A DNA stretch of 30,946 nucleotides from an uncultured virus (IMG/VR IMGVR_UViG_3300010945_000722) (lineage: Duplodnaviria > Heunggongvirae > Uroviricota > Caudoviricetes). Positions within the stretch are counted from its first letter, which is position 1; each line of letters starts with the position of its first letter. Where the stretch lies: positions 62,001-92,946 of IMG/VR virus record IMGVR_UViG_3300010945_000722; one strand, given 5' to 3'. Of this stretch, positions 2,727 to 30,946 are shown piece by piece. Both the position numbers and the translations under genes were made by a program. The notes beneath the pieces are model-generated. The model did no database searches and had not been told where the DNA came from. It saw only the letters and a program-made list of their open reading frames with translations.

Positions 2727-3176
2727 TCAACTTCCTCTGGAATTTCTTCTGTTAGCTGCTCTTGGATTGGCTGCAGAAAGTGCTTCAGCTTCTTCTCTCA
2801 TGATTCTATCTTCTTCAGTTTCAAATTCTTCTCTTAAATCATCATCATGAAGATTTCTTTCATCATCATCAGCTTCTTCTAAATTGGGAAGAGGTTCTCC
2901 ATCAGTGTCAAAAACTATCTTTGCAGATTTTCTCTGATTCATTCTTTCAAACTCTTCATCAGCTTTCCTGATAGCATCATCCAAAACACCAGTTGAAGCT
3001 GCAGTAGATGGATTAGGAGCTTTCCATCCATTCTTTACAGCTTCAGCCATCATAGCTCTTCCTATGGTATAAGATCTTTCAGCAAGAACTTCAGGTTCCA
3101 TTTGCTTTTTTAATACCATTACTTCCAGCATTACTCCAGGGAGAGATGCCGCTGCAAAATCATGTATGTCTTTCAT
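2727..3176 (-). CDS. Hypothetical protein with acidic C-terminal half
   Basis: 149-aa ORF; D/E-rich region EEADDDER...EEFETEEDR. Confidence 0.8.
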   Translation of the reverse strand: MKDIHDFAAASLPGVMLEVMVLKKQMEPEVLAERSYTIGRAMMAEAVKNGWKAPNPSTAASTGVLDDAIRKADEEFERMNQRKSAKIVFDTDGEPLPNLEEADDDERNLHDDDLREEFETEEDRIMREEAEALSAANPRAANRRNSRGS

Positions 3177-3182
3177 GGCATT

Positions 3183-4340
3183 TTATTTTACAAATAACAA
3201 CTCATCATAACTCATGATAAATTGATTTTGGTTTTCAATAATAATTCTGTCAGTTTCAAAACCATTTTCCAAATGCCACTCATACAAATCTAAAGCTTGA
3301 TTTACTCCAAGTACCTCTTTAACAACAGGAACAGAGTAAACAAGATGTTCTTTATCTACTGCATCAGTAACATCTGTATAACCTTCAGGTTTGAAGTGCT
3401 CGTACATTTTAGGTCTGCCATGTGTGGCAAAACTCAGCATATCAGGGCTACAAGTGAAAACACAAGGTTGTCCTTGTGCATCTCTTTCTGTAGTTTCTAC
3501 CATAAATTTAAATGGTAAAACTGTGTACCCAAGTCTAAGATAAGTTTCTTTAAATCCAATGGTGTACCAGGCAGCCTGAAAATCATACCTATAATTTTTC
3601 ACATCCCAAAGGAAATTAACTGCAGCATTTCTGGTAGTTTTTAAGTCAAAAGGTTGTACAGTTTTTGCATTGTGATTGACAATATACCAATCCGGTAACA
3701 TCTTACAGGAGTGGCCTCTGAAAGTGAAGTAAATTGGCTCTTGAAATTTTAATTCAACACCTTCAGATAATTCAAAAAACTCTCTTGTGACAGGGTGGCT
3801 AGTAAGACTCTTGTAAACTGCAAAAATGATTTCATTTTCTTCAGGAGTAAGTATTTGTTTCCCAGCACTTTCAATTAACTCTTTCCAGTAGTAAAAGCCT
3901 TCTTTTACAATAGAAGCAGGTCTGGTATCTTGTTCCCAGTTGTCTTTTCTTCTGTTCATAAAATACTGATGCAATTCACAACTGTCATAGATAAGTTGAA
4001 TGTGGTCAGAAAGTTGTGGAGCTTCTTCTAACAAAGCTTCTAAACTGCCATATTTTATTTTGGCATTTTCCAATGTCTGTTGTACAATAGACATAATGGC
4101 TGCAGAAGGTTTGTTAACAGAAGCTGCATAGTATTTTTGATGAAAATACTCTTCTCCCATTGTAATTAATGTGTCTACACCATTTCCGTATATGATATGA
4201 GATTTCTCTTCATAAAACAAATCAGTGTTGTCTTGCTGTTGCTGTGCCTTAAAAGCTTTTACTCCACCTTTAAGCAAAGCCTTTAAAAGACTTTGGTTTA
4301 ATCCGGGATGTTCCCGGTAATCTTGTATTCTCGATTCCAT
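3183..4340 (-). CDS. PD-(D/E)XK exonuclease (RecE/exonuclease VIII-like)
   Basis: KMLPDW...FDLKTT and YRYDFQAAWY motifs; N-terminal LNQSLLK. Confidence 0.85.
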   Translation of the reverse strand: MESRIQDYREHPGLNQSLLKALLKGGVKAFKAQQQQDNTDLFYEEKSHIIYGNGVDTLITMGEEYFHQKYYAASVNKPSAAIMSIVQQTLENAKIKYGSLEALLEEAPQLSDHIQLIYDSCELHQYFMNRRKDNWEQDTRPASIVKEGFYYWKELIESAGKQILTPEENEIIFAVYKSLTSHPVTREFFELSEGVELKFQEPIYFTFRGHSCKMLPDWYIVNHNAKTVQPFDLKTTRNAAVNFLWDVKNYRYDFQAAWYTIGFKETYLRLGYTVLPFKFMVETTERDAQGQPCVFTCSPDMLSFATHGRPKMYEHFKPEGYTDVTDAVDKEHLVYSVPVVKEVLGVNQALDLYEWHLENGFETDRIIIENQNQFIMSYDELLFVK

Positions 4341-4342
4341 AT

Positions 4343-4765
4343 TTATTTTTTTGGGTATGCTGTTTTAAATAATTTCATAAAATCATTAAGAGTCATGGTA
4401 ACAATTGTGTCAAACTCTGTTCTTTTTCCTTTTGCAGGTTTTTTATGCACCACTATTTTTGGGTAGTGGTGCTGTGGTTCAGTTTCTGGCAATCTTGCAT
4501 TCATTTCATCTTTCATCATCTTTAACTCTGATACAGGTTTCATATTTTTCTGTTCTCCTACTTTAGATTGCACATTGAGTGGAATAAAATTCAGATCAAT
4601 TTTACAATTGTCAAGTATTCTGGAAGAGTTTCTGGTAGTAGTACACTTTTCAAAAGGAGTTTCTGTTTTGAATAAAAGAGCTAATTCTCTTTCCCCATTG
4701 TGTCCTTTTGTTCTGCTGGTTTTTCCATGATGAGTTTTTTTATTTTCTACATCAGAAGGTAACAT
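4343..4765 (-). CDS. Putative Holliday junction resolvase (PD-(D/E)XK)
   Basis: SRTKGHNGERELA...KIDL...NVQSK; likely start MLPSD at 4765 (ORF track starts at 4840). Confidence 0.7.
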   Translation of the reverse strand: MLPSDVENKKTHHGKTSRTKGHNGERELALLFKTETPFEKCTTTRNSSRILDNCKIDLNFIPLNVQSKVGEQKNMKPVSELKMMKDEMNARLPETEPQHHYPKIVVHKKPAKGKRTEFDTIVTMTLNDFMKLFKTAYPKK

Positions 4766-5459
4766 TGCGGTTTCCTGTGTTTTGTGACGTGTGCTGCTCA
4801 ACTGCTTGGTTTTGGTTTGAAGGGATAATTTGGGTGTCATATAAAAGATTGTTTAGTGATTTAAGATACTGTTTCATTTCATCAACAGTATCAAAGGTAG
4901 GATATTCATAGGACCTTTTATACACCTGTGCCCGGATATCAGTAGTGTACAGCAGGGTTACTTTTGCTTCAGTACATTGTTTTATGTACTGATTAAACAT
5001 ACTTCTGAGTCCAACATGTCCCTTATCCTGATATCTATAATCTATCATAAGACAGATTTTACTATAATCAGGATTATTCCAGTCCATTTCAAACAAATAC
5101 TTTCTGTCAATAGTAAGCATAAGCAAAGGGTAGTAATCTCTTATATCAGAAAAGTATACCATACCTTTTCTGATATAATAATTAAAAGGTCTTCTGCCAC
5201 CAAAACAAACCATTCTCATGTCCAGTAAAAAAGACTTTAAATATTCTTCTTTATTACTTGAATGTGCAGCTCTTGCTCCTTTTTCTACTTCATTGTATAA
5301 CAACACTTTTTTTCTTGTCAAACCTTGTACTTTTGTAACTACAGTTCCTTCAAATCCAGCATGGATAGGAACATAGGCATTAGCTACACTATCAGCAATT
5401 TCAAGCTTTTTTGCATCACTGCCTACATTATGCAGTCTCTTTTCCTTTGTGAGTATCAT
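4752..5459 (-). CDS. Hypothetical protein directly downstream of and overlapping the E1/ThiF gene
   Basis: ~235-aa ORF; first ATG at 5459 lies within the 3' end of the ThiF gene. Confidence 0.8.
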   Translation of the reverse strand: MILTKEKRLHNVGSDAKKLEIADSVANAYVPIHAGFEGTVVTKVQGLTRKKVLLYNEVEKGARAAHSSNKEEYLKSFLLDMRMVCFGGRRPFNYYIRKGMVYFSDIRDYYPLLMLTIDRKYLFEMDWNNPDYSKICLMIDYRYQDKGHVGLRSMFNQYIKQCTEAKVTLLYTTDIRAQVYKRSYEYPTFDTVDEMKQYLKSLNNLLYDTQIIPSNQNQAVEQHTSQNTGNRNVTF

Positions 5460-16522: not shown

Positions 16523-18454
16523 TTAGTGAATATCACTGTAGCTTTTGCCAAAATCAAGGCTTATACCTAAAGTAATATTTAGTTTTAAAATTTCATTTGT
16601 TTTTATAATGCATTGCTGTAAATCTTCTTTTACTTGTTCCTGTTTATCCTTATGCAAAGGAAAGATTACTTCATCATGAAACTGTCCACAAATTTTGTAG
16701 CTCTTTTGTCTTATATTCCTCACTTGAGTATCAAAACAAAACACTCCTGTACCCTGATTAAGAGTTGAAAATCTATCTTTATCAAATCTTAGTGAATACC
16801 AGAACCGGCTTACAGGATTAAAAAGCCACATTTGTCCATCTATGGTTTTTACTGCACAAGACTTAGCTATCTTTTTTACAGCCCAGTTTCTTTTCCAATA
16901 AATCTTATGTAAAATTTGTGCCTGTAATAAAGGCATTCCTGTTGTAAGACTTATTTTAGGGGGCCCTGCTCCATATACAGCTGAAAAGTTAACTTGCTTG
17001 GAATCTTTTCTTTGTTTAGAAAGTTTTTTCACTTCAGCTTTCCTCTCTTCCTGTGTCATATCCAGATACTTCTGGGCAATAAGATTTTCCGGAATAGGTT
17101 TACCATCCATCCACCTGTAAAAATAAGACTCTTCTTGTGTCATCATATTTGCTAATACTCCAATATCAACATGGGGATCAAAATCAGGACTTCTCATTTC
17201 TTTTACATACTCAGGGTCATACTTAAACATGTAGTGCTGCTTAGTGCTATCTTCAAGGGATGTCATATCACTGCCACAAAGGATATGGTCATCATCAGGA
17301 GCTATCAGACATCCTCTGATTTCTTTGCCATAGGGTTTGTGTATTGAAGGTAAATTTACTACTACAGTGTGCTGAAATCTGAGAGTATTTGTAAAACCTT
17401 TTATTTCCGCTTTTACAAAACCATCTTTATCTGCATTTTCCATAAAACCTTTCAAAATACCTAACCGGTGATTGATAATAAACAATCCTTCCAGTGCATA
17501 AATTGCAGGTTCTATTTCAGCTAGTAATTTTACACTTTTACACAAGCCATCTGCAGTACTGATTTGAGGCACATTTTTTATATTGTTGTCTTTAGCTTTC
17601 CTTAGAATAAAAGTAGCAGGTTTCCAACCTAAACCATATAACCAGTCTTTCAGTTGAGTCTGAGAAGATGGATTACCTGGTTCAGATTTTTCTTCCACAG
17701 TTAATATACCATTTTCAGGTTCCGGAACTTCTAATTCTTCAAGTAAACTATTCCATTTCAATGCAGCTGCAGAAGGAGTCCCATCTGCTTTTGTCATTTT
17801 TGCAGGTTTTTTGATGTCTTTGTAAGTTATGTTTTCAGGCATGGCTGCACTGAGCTGATCTACTCTTTTTTGTCTTTCTGCTGTAAGCATTCTAAAAACA
17901 AGCTGACATTTTTGGGTATCTACTTTCCACTTCACTTCCTCCTGTTCTCTGGCACAATCCAATTTAAAAGACAAATAATTAAGCAGTCTGATTTCATTAC
18001 CAGGCAGATAGATTTGCTGTAAATATGCCAGCTCCTGTAACCAAAGTTTAAAGTTAATTTCCACATCTCTGATACATCTTTCTACATACAATTGTAAAGA
18101 AGAATGTTTCCAGTCTTTTACTTCTATTTTAGGGATACCAAACTCTTCTCCGTAGCTCTCTAATCCATGCTTCAGTCTTTCCGGATACAAATACCAACTA
18201 ATACCTAAGGTATCCCAAAGTACATTAGTGATTTTTATCTGAAGTATTTTTTCACACAAAGGAATATCATACCTGATAATATTATGTCCAACTATTGCAC
18301 AATCAGAAGGTAAAGCAGAAAAAAAAGTAATCATATCATCATAGTGACTGAGCACTCCTCTCTTACCTTCATCATCATACCATACAAGGCAGTGTATAAC
18401 AGTAGCATCTTCTAAGAGCCCATCAGACTCTACATCAATTACACAATATTTCAT
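16523..18454 (-). CDS. polA: Family A DNA polymerase with 3'-5' exonuclease, phage type
   Basis: Exo motifs DVESDG, GHNIIRYD, CIRDV; polymerase motifs DMTSLE, RKDSKQVNFSAVYG, QFHDE; likely start MKYCV at 18454. Confidence 0.95.
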   Translation of the reverse strand: MKYCVIDVESDGLLEDATVIHCLVWYDDEGKRGVLSHYDDMITFFSALPSDCAIVGHNIIRYDIPLCEKILQIKITNVLWDTLGISWYLYPERLKHGLESYGEEFGIPKIEVKDWKHSSLQLYVERCIRDVEINFKLWLQELAYLQQIYLPGNEIRLLNYLSFKLDCAREQEEVKWKVDTQKCQLVFRMLTAERQKRVDQLSAAMPENITYKDIKKPAKMTKADGTPSAAALKWNSLLEELEVPEPENGILTVEEKSEPGNPSSQTQLKDWLYGLGWKPATFILRKAKDNNIKNVPQISTADGLCKSVKLLAEIEPAIYALEGLFIINHRLGILKGFMENADKDGFVKAEIKGFTNTLRFQHTVVVNLPSIHKPYGKEIRGCLIAPDDDHILCGSDMTSLEDSTKQHYMFKYDPEYVKEMRSPDFDPHVDIGVLANMMTQEESYFYRWMDGKPIPENLIAQKYLDMTQEERKAEVKKLSKQRKDSKQVNFSAVYGAGPPKISLTTGMPLLQAQILHKIYWKRNWAVKKIAKSCAVKTIDGQMWLFNPVSRFWYSLRFDKDRFSTLNQGTGVFCFDTQVRNIRQKSYKICGQFHDEVIFPLHKDKQEQVKEDLQQCIIKTNEILKLNITLGISLDFGKSYSDIH

Positions 18455-18464
18455 AGTTTGCAAT

Positions 18465-19022
18465 TTAAAGTTTTTCAATGATTAATATTTTACCTTTTAC
18501 TGTTTTGGATTCGGCTGACTGCCATATTTCTATAAGATTTAATTGCGCACTGCATTGACAATATTTCATTTCTTTACCACAAAAAATATTACAGTTTTTA
18601 GTGTTTATTGGTCTTTTTTCACCATAAGGATTCACAACAAACATTCCTTCATCTTGTATTGCCTTTTGGATTTTACTTTTAAATGATTTTACCCTACATT
18701 CATATTCAGGCAATCCAACAAAACACATATTTTCATTACTTGATAAATAATCTCTGTACAGATATGTATCTTCAATAAAAACTCCTTTATTAAACTTTTT
18801 CTTCTCCACCCAGCTTTCATCAACTTCAAAATCAAAGTCAAACATTGGCAGTGTGCATGTACCGTGTATTTTAAAGTCAAAACCAATTTTAAAATATTTC
18901 CAAAGTTTAAGTTTTTCTTCTCTGTAAATCAAATGCTCTGCTTGCACATTAAAGTTATGTACATCTGCAGGTAAAAATATTAAGTAGATAGTTTCTGATA
19001 TCTTTACTAGTTGCTCTTTCAT
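18465..19022 (-). CDS. Hypothetical protein
   Basis: Likely start MKEQL at 19022; Cys cluster near the C-terminus. Confidence 0.75.
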   Translation of the reverse strand: MKEQLVKISETIYLIFLPADVHNFNVQAEHLIYREEKLKLWKYFKIGFDFKIHGTCTLPMFDFDFEVDESWVEKKKFNKGVFIEDTYLYRDYLSSNENMCFVGLPEYECRVKSFKSKIQKAIQDEGMFVVNPYGEKRPINTKNCNIFCGKEMKYCQCSAQLNLIEIWQSAESKTVKGKILIIEKL

Positions 19023-19469
19023 AATGTGTTTTTGTTTTAAAATTTCTTCAGTATTTTCTGTGATTATGCTTTTCGGATTGCCACCCTGACTGTTCACCTA
19101 ATGTTTAAGTTTTTGTTGTTAATAAAATCACCTTAGAGCCTTTCCCCGAAAAGAGGAAAGGATAAAGTGTAAAACAAAGTCTGATTCTAACTGCCTTATG
19201 CAGTGGATTAGCACCTCAGCTTTGATTGTCAACACCCAGTATTGATGTTTCAAAGATGTTACCTACACTTCCATAAGCTTTTCTACAAGCCTAAATAAAA
19301 GTTTACTTCAGCTTCTGGAGGATTTCTGGTACAAGTTTTTCCACTAACCTGTATCTTCTAAGTGAAGCCACTAAAAATCATGTCTTGCTTTATTTTTTTG
19401 TAAATGTTTAGCACCCTCTTTCTTCCCGAACCTGTGCAAGCACTTGGTATTTGTAAAGAGTAGGGTCAG

Positions 19470-20039
19470 GTATTCATACATTTTGTTGCTATATCTGTTT
19501 CTTTAGAATGAATACTTTGCTGAGAACTCATTTGTGTTGTAGGCAGGATAGTCCAAGCCTCTTGAAACCTATTCCATATCTCAATTTGGAACAACACATC
19601 ATATATTACTATATGAATTTTAGAATTGTATATAAAATATCTTCCAACATCCATGAAGTTCGCATAGTTAGGTCTTAACATTTGGACTCCAAATCAAAAT
19701 AGGTTTGCAAAGTGTTTATTTACAATTCAAGGACTGTGATAACCTCGTTGATGAAATAGTCATAGGTAATTTAAGTTTCACCCCTTGTCATATTCCCTAA
19801 TTTCTCTGACTAAGATTTTATCTCTATCAACTGCATACAGTTTATGTATTATCCTGTATGGTTTTTGCCCCCACACCAACATCACTGTTGATGCAGGGTA
19901 TCATCTTTTTAAGAGGCCTTTGGTGGTTCCCACGCAGAGCCATTACCAAACTAACTCTGTCAGAGGTGTTAACAATGTCAACACATGAAATTTTACATGT
20001 AGAAATTACTCTTCAACCTTTTACGCATTTAAGATGATA
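19470..20039 (-). ncRNA. Candidate large structured non-coding RNA(s)
   Basis: Dense nested inverted repeats with G-U pairs favouring the minus strand; no convincing ORF. Confidence 0.5.
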
Positions 20040-20043
20040 TATT

Positions 20044-20180
20044 TTGATGGCAGGGAATTTCTTCAGACCCGGTTCCTGATAGCTCACACCTCCTGTATGA
20101 ATAAAGAGACTGGGCTAAACTGTTACCCTGCGGTTTTATCTTAGGGCATCTTTACTGAGTACTTATCCCCACCATATCAA
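20044..20180 (-). ncRNA. Candidate ~135-nt structured RNA
   Basis: Ends pair: AUGGUGGGGA / UCCCUGCCAU (10 bp, 2 G-U). Confidence 0.4.
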
Positions 20181-20189
20181 ATAAAAAAT

Positions 20190-20385
20190 AAACAGGCTTT
20201 GTTTATAAGGCTTATTCATAGTTTGGGTATTCTCTCCCTACTGGTAAACCAGGTGATTTTTCTACTATGGTTTTACTCAGGTGATTTAATGAAGGTGCAA
20301 TACCTCCTCTCACTATATCCACTAAAGGCATTTGCCAAACTGGTATCAATTTAATGGCTTACCAATTCTATGGGCCAACCTGTTT
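20190..20385 (-). ncRNA. Candidate ~195-nt structured RNA
   Basis: Ends pair: AAACAGGUU / AGCCUGUUU, followed by a U-tract. Confidence 0.4.
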
Positions 20386-20387
20386 GT

Positions 20388-20636
20388 CTAAGATATTGTA
20401 GTACTTGCAGGTTCTATTGGACTTATCATTTCTACTTTTTTTGGAACAGAAACTTCTTTAATCAACAGTGAACCGGCAAGAATTTCCTTATCTAAAATAT
20501 AAGTGTTTTGAGTAGTAAGAATTACTCCCTCTGACTGATGATTTTTAGCAATAGCTTTAAGCACTGCAGCTTCTACTTCATCTGTAGGCATAATAACTGC
20601 TGTGTATACAGAGTCTTTTACAAAGAATGTGTTCAT
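20388..20636 (-). CDS. Hypothetical protein
   Basis: 82-aa ORF with an A-rich leader. Confidence 0.7.
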   Translation of the reverse strand: MNTFFVKDSVYTAVIMPTDEVEAAVLKAIAKNHQSEGVILTTQNTYILDKEILAGSLLIKEVSVPKKVEMISPIEPASTTIS

Positions 20637-20659
20637 GTGGTATTTTAGTTTATAAGTTT

Positions 20660-20701
20660 AAAAAAAAGCAGCCAGAAGAAGAATAAGAAACTTCTGACTG
20701 C
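20660..20701 (-). terminator. Intrinsic terminator after the HNH-like gene
   Basis: GCAGTCAGAAG-12 nt-CTTCTGGCTGC followed by a T7-8 run. Confidence 0.75.
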
Positions 20702-20727
20702 CAGGGTTGCATGTCCCTTTACCTTTA

Positions 20728-21237
20728 TTATTTTTGTTGTTTTAAAATATTGATAAAATTTTTGACTTCAGAATCTGTCATGGTATTTTTCATGTAATTA
20801 ACAGCTATACTGACAAATTGTACATTATTTTTTATATAACCAATAGAAGAATCTATTCTATCTAAAGAAGCAGTATAAACAGGGTTGTTTTTTCCTTTTG
20901 AAACGGGGTGTAACAGTGCTACTTTTGAATATACACAAATACCTTTTTGAAGATTCCAAATGTCAAACAAGTCTTTTACAGATATATCAATCCTTTTTTC
21001 TCTTCTTTTTGCTTTGCTTATATGTATCCTTAATCCTGTAAACTCATCTTTTTTACCAGAGTGTTTCCATATCTCACCTTGACCTTTGTATGGATCAAGG
21101 TGAGTATGATTTTTCTTTCCAGAACATGTGCGAGAACAATAATTTTTTCTCCCAATTTTCTGTGACCTTTTTATTTCTCTGACTTCCCGGTCAAAAGCAG
21201 AGCCACAGTTTGCACAAATAATTGTAGTAGTTTTCAT
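20728..21237 (-). CDS. Free-standing His-Me-finger (HNH-like) endonuclease with N-terminal Zn finger
   Basis: CANCG...YCSRTC; QKGICVYS...SLDRIDSSIGYIKNNVQFV...NYMK. Confidence 0.8.
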   Translation of the reverse strand: MKTTTIICANCGSAFDREVREIKRSQKIGRKNYCSRTCSGKKNHTHLDPYKGQGEIWKHSGKKDEFTGLRIHISKAKRREKRIDISVKDLFDIWNLQKGICVYSKVALLHPVSKGKNNPVYTASLDRIDSSIGYIKNNVQFVSIAVNYMKNTMTDSEVKNFINILKQQK

Positions 21238-21287
21238 ACTGCAATATACAGAAAATTCTGTGGAGTTGCAATGTTTTGCTGTGGAGT

Positions 21288-21641
21288 TGGAGGTGAGGGG
21301 AATTAAACCCCTGTCCAGACAATCTCATTATCAAAAGATTTATTTATAGCTTAGGATGACATTTATACTTGTCCCAAAGTAGGGCTAACAGTTCCCTGTT
21401 ATGCTCACACCATCCTGTTTTATAACAGGCAACGTATAGTGACAATTAGGCTGCCATAAGTTCAGAAGCATTCACTTCTTCTTCAATAGCTGCAAGGGCA
21501 GTATCAATACTGTCTCTTCTGGAAGAGATGTAAAGAGCTGATTTGTTGTTGTTGTCAATTAAATTTGTTGTTTTAGTTTTTACAGGTAACTCTCCTGGCT
21601 AATCTTTTGTAACTCCACTGCTGTCAAATTCTGTCACCCCC
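21288..21641 (-). ncRNA. ssrA: tmRNA
   Basis: 5' GGGGGTGACAGAATTTGAC; 3' GGACAGGGGTTTAATTCCCCTCACCTCCA; acceptor stem GGGGGUG/CACCUCC with a G3-U Ala determinant; helix 2 (ACAAAAGATT/AATCTTTTG); tag ORF 21556-21446 ending MAA*. Confidence 0.95.
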
Positions 21642-21652
21642 TGTTGCTATCA

Positions 21653-21660
21653 CAAAGATA
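21653..21660 (-). promoter_or_regulatory. Bacteroidota-type -7 promoter element upstream of tmRNA
   Basis: TATCTTTG (TAnnTTTG), 11 nt upstream of the tmRNA 5' end, inside the inverted repeat TGCTATC-N5-GATAGCA. Confidence 0.7.
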
Positions 21661-21684
21661 GCATTTTTATCTGTAAAATATAAA

Positions 21685-21880
21685 AGCTGTGTTTAGCTTT
21701 GTCATCCCTCTCGTTGTCTTACTTTTTAAGCATTGGAAGTAGTACATTCCCAATCACAAATTGACAGGCAAATGCAGGGAAATCCGCAGAGCTTTTGAAC
21801 CTACACACTCAGGTCTGGAATAAACTTAGGCTAGCCTTCCGATAATGGCAGCTACTGCACAGCTAAGAGGTTTCCCTCTT
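21685..21880 (-). ncRNA. Candidate ~180-nt multibranch RNA upstream of tmRNA
   Basis: Closing helices AGCUGUG/CACAGCU and UAGCU/AGCUA, then UUU; preceded by an AAGAGG-GAAA-CCUCUU hairpin. Confidence 0.5.
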
Positions 21881-22368: not shown

Positions 22369-23058
22369 CTAATTACTTTCATAATTAGATTGGACTATAT
22401 CTTGAATATTCTTTTCACATTCATTGTAATATTGCCAATGGTATCCATAAGGATTGTAATTCTTCTTATCTTTTAAGACGGAATACACATTACCATAAGC
22501 ATGTTTACTATTTATAAAATTATTTACTTCAAACCCATACTTAAACAGTCTTATTGGTTGTTCATACTTAAAACATACTATCCAATTAGATAACCCTTTA
22601 ACAGCAGGATTATTTAATCCCCTTCTACTTTCAGATAAATTCTCTGCAAATCCTTTGGGTTTTTTTCTACCTTTGTTTGATTTTGAAATCTTAGCTGATT
22701 GTTCTTCTAATTGTTTTTCTGTATAATACTTTGAAGTATGCTTTCCTTTACCTCCATCTGTCATATTTGTTAGGTTAGAATTGAGTTTTCTAAAAAATTG
22801 AATATAATATACCTCTCTTTCTTCCAGACTACTGTTTGTTACAACCTCTAAAAGATGTATTGTAGCTTTCTCTGGTCTTAAAGTAAGTAAGTATTCATAT
22901 CTTTTATTAGATTTTCTCAATCCCCTCTCAAATTCTCTCAAATGTTGATAATGAGTTCTTAATCTGTTATTGAGAGATGATGCAGTTGACCCTACATAAA
23001 ATATCTCTCCTGTAATAGGATTTTGTAAATAATATATAAACCCAAGTTCTGTATTCAT
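22369..23058 (-). CDS. Intron-encoded GIY-YIG homing endonuclease with NUMOD3-like repeats
   Basis: GFIYYL...FYVGST...R...H...ERE...N; basic SAKISKSNKGRKK segment. Confidence 0.9.
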   Translation of the reverse strand: MNTELGFIYYLQNPITGEIFYVGSTASSLNNRLRTHYQHLREFERGLRKSNKRYEYLLTLRPEKATIHLLEVVTNSSLEEREVYYIQFFRKLNSNLTNMTDGGKGKHTSKYYTEKQLEEQSAKISKSNKGRKKPKGFAENLSESRRGLNNPAVKGLSNWIVCFKYEQPIRLFKYGFEVNNFINSKHAYGNVYSVLKDKKNYNPYGYHWQYYNECEKNIQDIVQSNYESN

Positions 23059-25814: not shown

Positions 25815-26565
25815 AAGAACTGTTTGTTTTAAATGACTCAAATAGCTGAGTTATGCTGTATTGCTGACAATACACCAGAACTAAGTTATAAATCCCAAAG
25901 ATGGGGAAGGAGACGCAATCCTTCCCTAATCTTCAGAATAGTCTACCAATCCGTTGATGGTAACACCTTACTTTCAAATCAACAAGAGAATACTGTTGCT
26001 CCTGCTGCTACTAATGTGGCTACATGAACCAGGTAAGCATCTTTTTTCATAGGACATGCTTTTTTATGGGTGAAGAAATAAAAAACAAAAGATGCCGGTA
26101 GGAACAAAATAACTAAAAATGGTAATTCAAAAAACGGAAATCCTACCGGCAAAAAACATTAACTAACTAACTTACCCTTAGGACAGGGAATTATCATCAA
26201 AACTATATCCATCTTCATCATCTTTTAATGGCACTTGCTGTGCTATTATAAAAGAGTTGATTGCAAGACAAGTCATAAAGACTAAAATAATAAATGTGGC
26301 CATATACTAAATTTTAAAGGTGAATAATCCAATGGGAGTGGACTCTCCAATGTAGAGAGTCCCAAAGTATTGTATCTTAACATTAGTTCAAAGTCAATAA
26401 TACCTGCAATACAGATGGTACATAATGGTCCAGAAGTTGCATTAGCTGCAAGACCACACCAAGAGTGTGGCTTTGTTGCCTCTCTGTATCAGGTGTATGC
26501 TAAAAATTCCACACTTATCTTAACTCCGGTAAAAGCCAGGCAAAAACCACACTATACATGTCTGG

Positions 26566-29076: not shown

Positions 29077-29583
29077 GATGTATTTATTTAAGGGATGATG
29101 AATAAAAAGGCTATATTATACAAATGTTTGTGAAAATTGAGATTTGAGAAAAGTGGTTAAAAACCCCTCTACTTTTCTAACTCACACTCAAGTGAGTGAT
29201 TATCAATGAGTTATATCATCAATAATCTACCCACTGAGTAGAGTGATGGCCTAATTCTGGCTTGTTGTGAACACCAAAGTGGGTGCTACTGTCACAACTC
29301 TTACAATTCTTGTTCTCATGTCTTTATTATTGAGGTGATTGGAATAAAAATAAAAGATGAGAGTGTGCCAGTCATAAACATACACCAAATGATCCTCTCT
29401 CACCCCTGTCCCGGAAGCAATCTATCCAGGAAGTACAGACTCCTTGGGCTCTGTTACACCTTCAACCTTGTTGTTCACCTTAGGTTAATGCCCACAATCA
29501 GATTGATACCTACCCCTGTGAGGAGTTCCAGCAGGTATCAGAGCTACTGATTTACCAGGTATTAAACCAGTATATTCAACAGT

Positions 29584-30228: not shown

Positions 30229-30445
30229 TATGGTAAGACTTAGTAGAGTCTTGTCAGGTGGCAGAGCTTGTGGTGGCTGTGCTGCTGGACAGGTAGGCAA
30301 GGTGTGGTGTGAGACACAGACACAGTGCTGTCAGCTTGCGGTAGCCTTGAGGTGGCTGAGGTTCAAGCTGTCCTGAGAGATACCATAACTATACCCTGCC
30401 TGCAAGAATTTGTTTCTTGAAATGAGGTGGGGGTATTTGTACTCT

Positions 30446-30465
30446 CAGAAATTAGAGGGGGTTGT
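30446..30465 (-). promoter_or_regulatory. Repeated 20-bp motif, copy 4
   Basis: ACAACCCCCTCTAATTTCTG. Confidence 0.6.
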
Positions 30466-30647
30466 TTGTGGGGAGGACCACATCTTCTCAAACCCATTAA
30501 ATATTTTTTAGAACCAAAAATTTTTTAGGTATTAAAATCTCTCATTGTAGGAACAGCAGGGGGAAGTTCTCTTGGTGGTTTTTCTCTACTTGGATATATC
30601 ATTGGTGTAAGTGCCGGATCTGTCATTGAAACAAAAATAAGAAATAA

Positions 30648-30678
30648 TTTGCTAATCTTAATTTTTATCTTAACTTTG
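30648..30678 (+). promoter_or_regulatory. Bacteroidota sigma-A-type promoter (-33/-7)
   Basis: TTTG (30648-30651), 19-nt spacer, TAACTTTG (30671-30678), just upstream of a + strand ORF. Confidence 0.75.
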
Positions 30679-30691
30679 TTTAAGAATTGAA

Positions 30692-30946
30692 ATGAATATG
30701 GAAAGTAAAGTTTTAAGGAAAATCCTCAGACTCCCTAGAGGAGAATATTACAAAACACACCTTCAAATAGTCAATGCTTTATTACCAATTAAGTTGACTA
30801 CAAAGGAAATAGAGGTCTTGGCAGCCTTTATGTCTTTAGATGGAGATATTGCCAAAGACAGGTTTGGAACTTCAGCAAGAAAGATTATTAAGAAAGATTT
30901 GAAACTTTCAGATGGTGGACTTGGAAACTATCTTAAAGCTTTTAAA
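30692..30946 (+). CDS. Putative winged-helix DNA-binding protein, runs off the right edge
   Basis: Hand translation MNMESKVLRKILRLPRGEYYKTHLQIVNALLPIKLTTKEIEVLAAFMSLDGDIAKDRFGTSARKIIKKDLKLSDGGLGNYLKAF... Confidence 0.7.
   Translation, partial: MNMESKVLRKILRLPRGEYYKTHLQIVNALLPIKLTTKEIEVLAAFMSLDGDIAKDRFGTSARKIIKKDLKLSDGGLGNYLKAFK

What the first reader, a model, noticed from the sequence alone, without database searches (positions are those of the whole stretch)
19470..20039. ~570 nt of densely base-paired non-coding sequence upstream of the polymerase region: candidate large ncRNA
Seen on the minus strand: a 13-bp stem with GUGA (GNRA) loop and three G-U pairs (19869-19898); a 9-bp helix 19899-19907/20031-20039 closing a multibranch domain; hairpins 19966-19984 and 19834-19860; helices 19533-19540/19591-19598 and 19470-19477/19508-19515; and a possible pseudoknot 19804-19810/19959-19965. 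This occurs in a genome that is otherwise tightly coding. Established: phages carry large structured RNAs near tRNA/tmRNA loci (GOLLD, ROOL). I cannot match this one to a known class.
Basis: partly seen in the sequence, partly recalled or inferred. Interest (0 to 1): 0.7.

Follow-up and report, generated by a model that had tools for sequence, protein, structure and literature searches.

The report
Tandem array of phage structured RNAs
The gene-free stretch in front of this phage's DNA polymerase genes is a row of separately folded non-coding RNA genes, and the largest belongs to a widespread phage RNA family that is missing from RNA catalogues and has no known job.

Summary
The ORF-free tract is 1,290 nt (19098-20387) and holds a head-to-tail row of separately folding RNA modules.

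- **Module E (19866-19408, 459 nt):** a full-length member of a large, almost phage-only structured-RNA family. Its 21-mer is exact in 116 IMG/VR contigs and in 4 of 185,579 prokaryote genomes. A covariance model built without this phage scores it 80 bits (E 4e-16), and covariation is strong. Rfam 15 has no match (not GOLLD, ROOL or introns).
- **Context:** the family sits co-oriented among phage tRNA/tmRNA genes. Its only deposited carrier, Cellulophaga phage phi14:2, holds it in a long intergenic region of the kind reported as an abundant, unexplained early transcript.
- **Module A (20385-20188):** belongs to a second uncatalogued family (7 contigs).
- **Modules B-D:** They are shared with only one sister phage but keep pairing through 15 double changes.
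- **Absence:** two other sister phages lack the whole array.

Function is unknown. I favour stable trans-acting RNAs tied to the phage's translation-takeover genes. Other agents of this scan found the same family on other DNA.

The parts
19098..20387 (-). Whole ORF-free tract (1,290 nt) between the 82-aa ORF and the 210-aa ORF/PolA
   Evidence: ORF lists under four codes; the longest gap in the 92,946-bp genome.
20188..20385 (-). Module A: member of a second recurrent uncatalogued RNA family, with a long-range closing helix and a conserved inner hairpin
   Evidence: Its 22-nt motif is exact in 7 IMG/VR contigs. RNAalifold on 7 sequences gives 22 pairs, 11 with compensatory changes, and the closing helix covaries at most positions. 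Fold z -2.90.
20043..20181 (-). Module B: 14-bp closing helix around a variable interior
   Evidence: Shared only with the L004 contig. The closing helix is invariant. Interior helices keep pairing through 9 double changes (helices 2-4). Fold z -1.48.
19899..20039 (-).
   Evidence: The isolated fold and RNAalifold agree. 4 double changes in its two tip hairpins against L004. Its motifs were found only in the L004 contig and in 0 metagenome records.
19869..19898 (-). Hairpin D: 13-bp stem with GUGA (GNRA) loop and three G-U pairs
   Evidence: Kept in L004 through 2 double and 4 single changes (helix 11). The G-U pairs exist only on the minus strand.
19408..19866 (-). Module E: full-length member (helices P1-P8) of the widespread phage RNA family
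   Evidence: Model R1, built without this phage, matches 19519-19632 at 80 bits, E 4e-16, over its full length. nhmmer from the window to family members reaches E 1e-18.
19834..19860 (-). P1 hairpin, the start of the 5' extension (P1-P2) seen in a subfamily
   Evidence: Its 19-nt motif is in 10 IMG/VR contigs. In 6 of them the RNA starts here, right after a CDS.
19599..19616 (-). P5 hairpin with GUAA (GNRA) loop
   Evidence: All 6 pairs covary across 44 sequences (helix 1).
19533..19598 (-). P6 helix enclosing P6a (conserved UUGAGA-type loop) and the variable hairpin P6b
   Evidence: helices 2, 3. P6 covaries in L025.
19519..19539 (-). 21-nt junction (3' strand of P6 plus J), the family's sequence signature. 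Its UUCUCA can pair with the P6a loop (candidate pseudoknot, untested)
   Evidence: Exact in 116 IMG/VR contigs and in 4 MAG contigs out of 185,579 species genomes.
19470..19515 (-). P7, an optional helix with a variable interior
   Evidence: The window has an 8-bp helix that differs from the consensus with matched changes on both strands. 71 of 81 members have at least 5 bp, and 12 of 93 replace P7 with a 2-nt linker.
19408..19467 (-). P8 and the conserved 3' end
   Evidence: The outer 5 bp are present in 81 of 93 unique 3' domains. The inner helix has 52 distinct sequences.
19098..19407 (-). Unassigned tail. It includes hairpin 19139-19161, just upstream of the next gene
   Evidence: Only the last ~72 nt are shared with L001, L002 and L004. 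The hairpin changes sequence but keeps pairing in L002 and L004.
21285..21641 (-). tmRNA gene, co-oriented, upstream of the array
   Evidence: Rfam RF00023, 74.2 bits.
20728..21237 (-). 169-aa HNH/EndoVII-type homing endonuclease ORF between the tmRNA and the array. Absent in L004 and L002
   Evidence: PHROGs hits; ORF maps and blastn.
20388..20636 (-). 82-aa ORF whose stop codon abuts module A
   Evidence: It is 95.5% identical in DNA to L002 but about 77% to L004.
16523..19097 (-). Downstream genes: 210-aa ORF and family A DNA polymerase
   Evidence: Pfam PF00476.

Best explanation
Window 19098-20387 (minus strand) is a cluster of RNA genes, not spacer and not one RNA. It holds five independently folding units in a row, each drawn together by its own closing helix: A, B, C, hairpin D and E.

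What the units are:
- E (19866-19408) is a full-length member of a large, uncatalogued, essentially phage-only family. The family is an eight-helix RNA with a GNRA-capped P5, a conserved P6a loop, an invariant junction and a conserved 3' end.
- A belongs to a second, smaller uncatalogued family.
- B, C and D are so far private to this phage and one sister.

How it most likely works (inferred, not shown):
1. The row is transcribed leftward with the early/replication block, in the same direction as the tmRNA gene upstream.
2. The units accumulate as stable RNAs. In relatives their ends coincide with tRNA 3' ends and tmRNA 5' ends, so host tRNA-processing enzymes could cut them out.
3. E acts in trans as a folded RNA that binds or mimics a component of the host translation or RNA-processing machinery, which is the same target area as the phage tRNA and tmRNA genes it travels with.

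My odds: it is an RNA-module array containing a family member, 0.9. It is made as stable RNA, 0.75. The trans-acting, translation-linked role, about 0.3.
For: Non-coding and strand:
- No ORF under four genetic codes.
- G-U pairs in D and in P5 exist only on the minus strand.

Membership of E:
- Model R1 was built from 44 sequences, none from this phage, L004 or the P1 subfamily. It hits 19519-19632 at 80 bits, E 4e-16, full length, with one copy in the window.

Structure of the family:
- 92% of cells are paired against 77% in shuffles.
- 104 double-change cells against 26.5 +/- 4.4 in shuffles (0 of 500 reach it); slid controls give at most 33.
- P7 and P8 helices come in 50 and 52 distinct sequences.

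Spread:
- 116 IMG/VR contigs of 12-373 kb.
- 4 of 185,579 species genomes, all MAG contigs.

Modularity:
- E-type units start directly after a CDS stop in 6 P1-type contigs.
- They start after a CDS stop in phi14:2 or after a tRNA 3' end in at least 7 of 71 anchored loci.
- Module A occurs without E in 5 contigs, and after an E-type 3' end and before a tRNA in L162.
- A's closing helix covaries.

RNA-gene context:
- 31 of 74 non-redundant loci have tRNA or tmRNA genes within 2.5 kb, all on the RNA's strand.
- 13 of them have a tmRNA downstream.

Expression of a relative:
- phi14:2 carries the family at record 2913-3359, inside a 685-nt gap.
- Drobysheva et al. (bioRxiv 10.1101/2020.03.07.982082, passages read) report two long intergenic regions there. 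They are transcribed rightward, above most mRNAs, from the earliest time point, without later decline.

No obligate protein partner:
- The best neighbour-protein cluster is in 14 of 74 loci.
Against: - There is no transcript data for this phage. Ends, processing and stability are inferred.
- E folds no better than shuffles (z -0.58).
- B-D rest on two sequences, and their structure was predicted from those same two.
- The invariance of the 21-mer in my set follows from how the set was collected.
- The candidate pseudoknot has no covariation to test it.
- Matching the phi14:2 copy to the paper's 'g004-g005 junction' is my inference from gap sizes. The paper's gene table is in supplements I could not open.
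- Two sister phages (L002, L001) lack the whole array while keeping the flanking genes, so it is dispensable for replication.
- In several relatives the RNA's 3' end lies only 20-30 nt before a start codon. That leaves room for a cis role.
- Nothing I ran bears directly on the proposed target.
Confidence: 0.7

Rival explanations
1. One giant ornate RNA of about 1.0-1.2 kb. Modules A-E would be domains of a single functional molecule, with a variable 5' half and a conserved 3' half, as described for GOLLD.
For: - The modules abut with 1-6 nt between them.
- No convincing promoter or terminator lies between them: 10 promoter-like sites against 10.6 expected, and 2 terminator-like sites against 1.8 expected.
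- The whole block A-E is present or absent as a unit among sister phages.
- The phi14:2 paper speaks of 'long' non-coding RNAs.
Against: - E and A each occur alone or in other orders in other phages.
- Every module closes on itself, and I found no conserved inter-module pairing.
- In 5 of 6 distinct variants, module A is followed by a U-rich run that could end a transcript.
Confidence: 0.18
2. A cis-acting leader: a structured 5' UTR that controls translation or stability of the downstream replication genes (210-aa ORF and PolA).
For: - It lies directly upstream of and co-oriented with those genes.
- In L025, L026, L029 and others, the family's 3' end is 20-30 nt from a start codon.
Against: - The family precedes tmRNA or tRNA genes or unrelated ORFs in other phages.
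- L002 and L001 keep the polymerase genes without the array.
- L004 has different ORFs downstream of it.
- The window has a 310-nt tail between E and the next gene.
Confidence: 0.06
3. A mobile genetic element or its remnant: a self-splicing intron, or the cargo of the neighbouring homing endonuclease, with the folding serving mobility.
For: - Presence/absence polymorphism with a short-homology junction.
- An HNH endonuclease ORF 150 nt upstream of the 82-aa ORF, and a second homing endonuclease at 22369-23058.
- The cassette is about 77% identical to L004 while the flanks are 96-98% identical.
Against: - No group I or group II intron, HEARO or other ribozyme model matches at E<=10.
- It interrupts no gene.
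- The endonuclease is absent in L004, which has the array.
- The family is usually found without any endonuclease nearby.
- The mosaic pattern is explained as well by ordinary recombination or endonuclease-driven co-conversion of a cargo RNA gene.
Confidence: 0.04
4. No RNA function: decayed genes, a replication origin or another DNA-level element.
For: - It lies next to the replication module.
- It is AT-rich.
- Module E is not thermodynamically special.
Against: - Compensatory base changes, strand-specific G-U pairs and conserved GNRA loops across about 100 unique sequences.
- No repeats or iterons were noticed.
- The family is mostly found among tRNA genes, not replication genes.
Confidence: 0.02

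Closest known systems
The unexplained abundant 'long non-coding RNA' regions at the left end of Cellulophaga phage phi14:2 (Drobysheva et al., bioRxiv 10.1101/2020.03.07.982082; passages read)
   Same: phi14:2 carries a member of the same family: 85.6 bits to model R1 at record 3097-3205, with the full unit at 2913-3359. It sits in a 685-nt gap followed by a tmRNA, on the rightward strand that the paper reports as transcribed.
   Different: - The paper reports only read coverage. It gives no structure, family, ends or function.
- The phi14:2 copy starts at P3. The window's copy has the extra P1-P2 arm and is preceded by modules A-D.
- My mapping of the copy to the paper's 'g004-g005 junction' is inferred.
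GOLLD RNA (Rfam RF02032) and ROOL RNA (Rfam RF03087)
   Same: Large, multi-helix RNAs carried by phages, often beside tRNA genes, with no assigned function. This description of GOLLD and ROOL is recalled from Weinberg et al. 2009 and 2017, and from the search-listing abstract of the cryo-EM preprint 10.1101/2024.12.08.627333.
   Different: - No sequence or structure match: neither model finds anything at E<=10 in this genome, nor does the full Rfam scan.
- The conserved core here is smaller (209-501 nt) and modular.
- Whether it forms multimers, as those RNAs do, is unknown.
Small stable RNAs encoded inside phage tRNA clusters (T4 species 1 and 2 RNAs; T5 RNA1). Recalled, not checked here.
   Same: Non-tRNA RNAs co-oriented with and adjacent to phage tRNA genes, presumably released by tRNA-processing enzymes, with function unknown.
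   Different: Those are short (roughly 100-140 nt) and tRNA-like. This family is 2-4 times larger and not tRNA-shaped (ARAGORN and the Rfam tRNA model do not call it).
Unnamed candidate structured RNAs from bulk IMG/VR mining (Fremin and Bhatt 2023, PMC10690425; passages read)
   Same: Same data source. It catalogues thousands of unnamed phage RNA motifs, including tRNA-like ones.
   Different: I found none of four contig numbers from this family in the supplementary files that could be searched. Three files could not be searched, so overlap with one of their 8,495 motifs cannot be excluded.

Membership tests
Uncatalogued phage RNA family (carried by phi14:2; module E) | Covariance-model match to the core (P5, P6, P6a, junction) | tested here: met
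   R1 was built without this phage. Window 19519-19632: 80 bits, E 4e-16, model positions 1-111 of 111.
Uncatalogued phage RNA family (carried by phi14:2; module E) | GNRA-capped P5 hairpin immediately 5' of P6 | tested here: met
   19599-19616, a 7-bp stem with a GUAA loop. All 6 family pairs covary.
Uncatalogued phage RNA family (carried by phi14:2; module E) | 21-nt junction signature and P6a loop of UUGAGA type | tested here: met
   Exact 21-mer at 19519-19539. The P6a loop at 19573-19590 keeps UUGAGA.
Uncatalogued phage RNA family (carried by phi14:2; module E) | P8 helix and conserved 3' end | tested here: met
   19456-19467 pairs with 19412-19424, and the unit ends at 19408.
Uncatalogued phage RNA family (carried by phi14:2; module E) | Co-orientation with phage tRNA/tmRNA genes | tested here: met
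   The tmRNA at 21285-21641 is on the same strand. In the family, 31 of 74 loci have such genes within 2.5 kb, all co-oriented.
Uncatalogued phage RNA family (carried by phi14:2; module E) | Abundant stable transcript | not testable with these tools
   Known only for phi14:2, from the paper's text. No expression data exist for this phage.
Module A family (second uncatalogued family) | Conserved 22-nt hairpin motif and a covarying long-range closing helix | tested here: met
   Motif at 20342-20363. The closing helix 20383-20377/20199-20192 fits the covarying helix of 7 sequences.
GOLLD (RF02032) | Match to the Rfam model (gathering score 150 bits) | tested here: not met
   No match at E<=10 in the whole genome. 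None in the scans.
ROOL (RF03087) | Match to the Rfam model (gathering score 99.1 bits) | tested here: not met
   No match at E<=10. The control genomes gave no hit either, so the search itself is unvalidated. The full cmscan also found nothing.
Group I / group II introns | Match to the intron core models, and interruption of a host gene | tested here: not met
   No intron family at E<=10 over 18900-21800 or at E<=5 in 15 other members. The only group-II-D1D4-1 hits lie elsewhere in the genome, at E 0.52 and above. The tract is intergenic.
HEARO / omega RNA of IscB-type HNH nucleases | Rfam match and an adjacent IscB-size nuclease | tested here: not met
   No Rfam match. The neighbouring HNH protein is 169 aa and of EndoVII/homing type.

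The most novel reading that the evidence does not exclude
Module E would represent a new class of large phage RNA with an activity of its own: a ribozyme or a self-assembling RNA particle. Phages of Bacteroidota-type hosts would deploy it, together with their tRNA and tmRNA genes, to take over or protect translation. The window would show it embedded in an exchangeable cassette of further unknown RNA genes (A-D) that phages swap, possibly with the help of the neighbouring homing endonuclease.
Probability: 0.2. Interest if true: 0.85.

Novelty: new variant of a known kind. Interest (0 to 1): 0.6.

Why it matters
Large, intricately folded RNAs with strongly conserved junctions are rare, and those whose function is known are mostly ribozymes or core cellular machines.

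- This family is widespread: 116 viral contigs from phages of 12 to 373 kb. It is absent from Rfam 15. In print it appears only as an unexplained, very abundant transcript of one laboratory phage.
- That phage, phi14:2 on Cellulophaga baltica, is cultured, so the function is directly testable.
- The window adds three things: a longer variant of the family (extra P1-P2 arm), a second recurrent family (module A), and three private modules.
- It also shows that the whole RNA block, with the tmRNA next to it, behaves as an exchangeable accessory cassette among phages that are otherwise 96-98% identical.
- This bears on the open question of what phage-borne RNA genes beside tRNAs (GOLLD, ROOL and the like) are for.

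Tried and rejected
- **Alternative genetic codes** (TAG=Q, TGA=W, TAA=Q) do not open a convincing frame. The best is 194 aa with 6 recoded TGA.
- **Rfam** at gathering score and at E<=10 on the window, on 20 family loci and on 15 more: only tmRNA, tRNA and chance-level hits. I first searched RF01998 from a wrongly recalled accession; it is group-II-D1D4-1, not GOLLD. I corrected this to RF02032.
- **blastn of the whole gap** against 50,697 phage records: no match at 1e-5. A typical family member finds only phi14:2.
- **Motifs of modules B and C:** only the L004 contig in IMG/VR and nothing in metagenome contigs.
- **Full-length covariance model:** the MAFFT alignments had 526 and 426 columns, over the 400-column limit. 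I therefore modelled only the 111-position core.
- **Neighbour-protein clustering:** no conserved partner. The top cluster is in 14 of 74 loci and has no Pfam match.
- **Promoter and terminator scan:** at chance level.
- **P1-loop/P3-loop kissing pair:** considered by eye and dropped, because P3-loop variants in L022, L024 and L029 do not compensate.
- **Contig numbers in the supplements of PMC10690425:** none found in the files that could be searched; three files were not searched.
- **Scripts:** I repeated them by other means.

Full report
**Setting.** The window is the last 31 kb of a complete 92,946-bp virus record with direct terminal repeats. The genome has a rightward block of late genes, including a major head protein and a 4,370-aa virion protein. 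It also has a leftward block of early and replication genes that fills the window: PolA, helicases, primase, Sak4-type annealing protein. This is the layout of crAss-like phages; that reading is an inference. The nearest deposited PolA is only 46.5% identical. With ORFs of 75 aa or more, the longest uncovered stretch in the genome is window 19098-20387, 1,290 nt. It stays closed under TAG=Q, TGA=W and TAA=Q. A tmRNA gene lies upstream on the same strand at 21285-21641.

**The observation.** For the exact interval, the fold is only modestly better than shuffles: z -1.86 on the minus strand and -2.51 on the plus strand. Comparison with relatives gives a clearer picture.

**Sister phages.** PolA relatives from IMG/VR gave four close loci with enough upstream DNA.
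- L004 has a homologous tract of 948 nt. Conserved blocks alternate with rewritten stretches and indels.
- L002 and L001 lack the block altogether. The 5' 26 nt of the tract are joined to sequence that forms L004's 3' tail.
- Flanking DNA is 96-98% identical between the window and L004, but the cassette from the 82-aa ORF through the array is about 77% identical. The tmRNA region does not align at all by blastn, although L004 and L002 have a tmRNA at the same place.
- The window alone has a 169-aa HNH endonuclease ORF between the tmRNA and the 82-aa ORF.

The RNA region is therefore an exchangeable, dispensable cassette.

**A widespread family (module E).** I searched IMG/VR with blocks conserved between the window and L004.
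- A 21-mer (19519-19539) is exact in 116 contigs of 12-373 kb.
- Across one genome for each of 185,579 prokaryote species, it is exact in only 4 MAG contigs.
- The contexts align into a common architecture: P3 hairpin; P4 around a variable insert; P5 with a GNRA loop; P6 enclosing P6a (conserved UUGAGA-type loop) and a variable hairpin; an invariant junction; optional P7; P8; and a conserved 3' end.
- 77 unique full-length units span 209-501 nt.
- On 44 sequences the named helices P5, P6 and P6a are 92% paired against 77% in shuffles. They show 104 double-change cells against 26.5 +/- 4.4 in shuffles (0 of 500), and at most 33 when the partners are slid.
- P6 never varies in that set, but it covaries in L025.
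- Of 93 unique 3' domains, 81 have a P7 region, 71 of those with a terminal helix of at least 5 bp in 50 distinct sequences. Twelve replace P7 with a 2-nt linker.
- A covariance model of the core, built without the window, L004 or the P1 subfamily, scores the window at 80 bits (E 4e-16, full length), L004 at 75.5 bits and phi14:2 at 85.6 bits. It finds nothing in L001, L002 or the distant PolA loci.
- A caveat: the junction's invariance follows from how I collected the set.

**Borders of E in the window.** A subfamily of 10 contigs has a 5' extension: a P1 hairpin plus P2 around an insert. In six of them the RNA begins at P1 directly after a protein gene. The window has this form, so E runs from about 19866 to 19408. 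The helix 19533-19540/19591-19598 is P6. The helix 19470-19477/19508-19515 is P7.

**The rest of the tract.**
- Module A (20385-20188) carries a 22-nt motif found in 7 contigs. Its long-range closing helix changes sequence but keeps pairing: 22 predicted pairs, 11 with compensatory changes, across 7 sequences. It occurs without E in five contigs. In L162 it occurs between an E-type unit and a tRNA.
- Modules B (20181-20043) and C (20039-19899) and hairpin D (19898-19869) have relatives only in L004.
- Across B-D, 87 predicted pairs are all kept in both sequences, 15 through changes on both sides, against at most 3 in slid controls. The structure was predicted from these same two sequences, which inflates the figure.
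- C+D folds well beyond shuffles (z -4.08). A gives -2.90, B -1.48 and E -0.58.
- The 310-nt tail (19407-19098) is unassigned. Its last hairpin (19139-19161) is also kept, with a different sequence, in L002 and L004.

**What it is not.**
- Rfam 15 gives nothing over the tract at gathering score or at E<=10.
- It gives nothing over the family in 20 loci at gathering score and in 15 further loci at E<=5.
- GOLLD and ROOL searched on their own give no match at E<=10.
- No intron, ribozyme or HEARO model appears.
- I found no name for the family in the literature searches I ran.
- Two large catalogues of unnamed motifs could contain pieces of it. For one (PMC10690425) I read passages and made a partial, negative search of its supplements. 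For the other (10.64898/2026.10.21.760802) I read only passages.

**Context and expression.**
- In 31 of 74 non-redundant loci, tRNA or tmRNA genes lie within 2.5 kb, always on the RNA's strand, and 13 have a tmRNA just downstream.
- Typical units begin 2-5 nt after a tRNA 3' end in at least 7 loci, or after other small recurrent RNA modules.
- No neighbouring protein is shared by more than 14 of 74 loci.
- The only deposited phage with the family is Cellulophaga phage phi14:2, a crAss-like phage. Its unit lies at 2913-3359, 9 nt after a gene, in a 685-nt gap. A second gap of about 690 nt follows and holds the tmRNA.
- Drobysheva et al. state that two long intergenic regions at that end of the genome are transcribed rightward at higher levels than most genes, from the earliest time point and without later decline, and that their function is undetermined.
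- I infer, but could not verify, that the first of those regions is this RNA. The gene table is in closed supplements.

**Reading.** The evidence fits a cluster of RNA genes expressed with the early block.
- *Shown:* non-coding status, strand, family membership, covariation, modular recurrence, association with tRNA/tmRNA genes, and presence/absence among sisters.
- *Inferred:* transcription and stability (from phi14:2), release by tRNA-processing enzymes (from the abutting tRNA ends), and a trans-acting role connected with translation (from the company it keeps and the lack of a protein partner).

The single-giant-RNA reading remains possible (0.18). Cis-leader, mobile-element and no-function readings are unlikely.

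**Earlier findings of this scan.** A look-up by sequence returned reports by other agents on other genomes that describe the same family. They call it uncatalogued, arranged in rows with other RNA modules, and equal to the phi14:2 transcript. These reports gave me the phi14:2 lead and the 'row, not one RNA' reading. I then tested both on my own data. They are not independent evidence.

Noticed in passing
window 21285-21641; L004 2978-3329; L002 4167-4518: The window's tmRNA is found by Rfam (74 bits) but not by ARAGORN. It does not align by blastn to the tmRNA that the 98%-identical sisters carry at the same place. The sisters' tmRNA encodes a 28-residue tag. The window's tag also looks long and ends similarly, but I read that only by eye.
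   Followed up: partly
window 20728-21237 and 22369-23058: Two homing-endonuclease-type ORFs flank the tmRNA region. The 169-aa HNH one is absent from L004 and L002. Together with the 77% versus 98% identity step, this suggests endonuclease-driven exchange of the tmRNA-to-array cassette.
   Followed up: partly
L002 4852-4975; L001 157-286: Sister phages without the array keep its first 26 nt, joined to L004's tail sequence. The result is a short hairpin that reuses module A's 5' strand. The junction shows a 3-nt homology (TGG).
   Followed up: partly
window 19139-19161 (and L004 about 4554-4585, L002 about 4907-4937): A 7-bp hairpin about 40 nt upstream of the next gene changes sequence but keeps pairing in all relatives, with or without the array. 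It could be a terminator or a translation element.
   Followed up: no
window 19205-19217: A 13-nt stretch in the unassigned tail resembles the family's conserved 3' end. Model R1 finds no second core copy.
   Followed up: partly
window 25842-26369, 29077-29582, 30244-30946: Three more stretches of 500-700 nt without ORFs of 75 aa or more. They have no Rfam match at gathering score and no similarity to any fetched locus.
   Followed up: partly
L041, L063, L064, L066, L073, L075, L082, L099, L109, L115 (just upstream of the family RNA): A ~50-nt conserved hairpin module immediately precedes the family RNA in 10 loci. It matches Flavobacterium phages of the elemo group by blastn. A second ~110-nt module recurs in 7 loci. 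Both are probably further uncatalogued small phage RNAs.
   Followed up: no
L002 about 4880-4900, L004 about 4528-4545, L077 (P7 position): The same 16-nt hairpin (4-bp stem, 8-nt loop) turns up in unrelated positions, once replacing P7 of the family RNA. It may be a portable protein- or RNA-binding motif.
   Followed up: no
genome 33535-46647 (outside the window): A single 4,370-aa ORF matches a PHROG of giant virion proteins over about 2,600 residues.
   Followed up: partly
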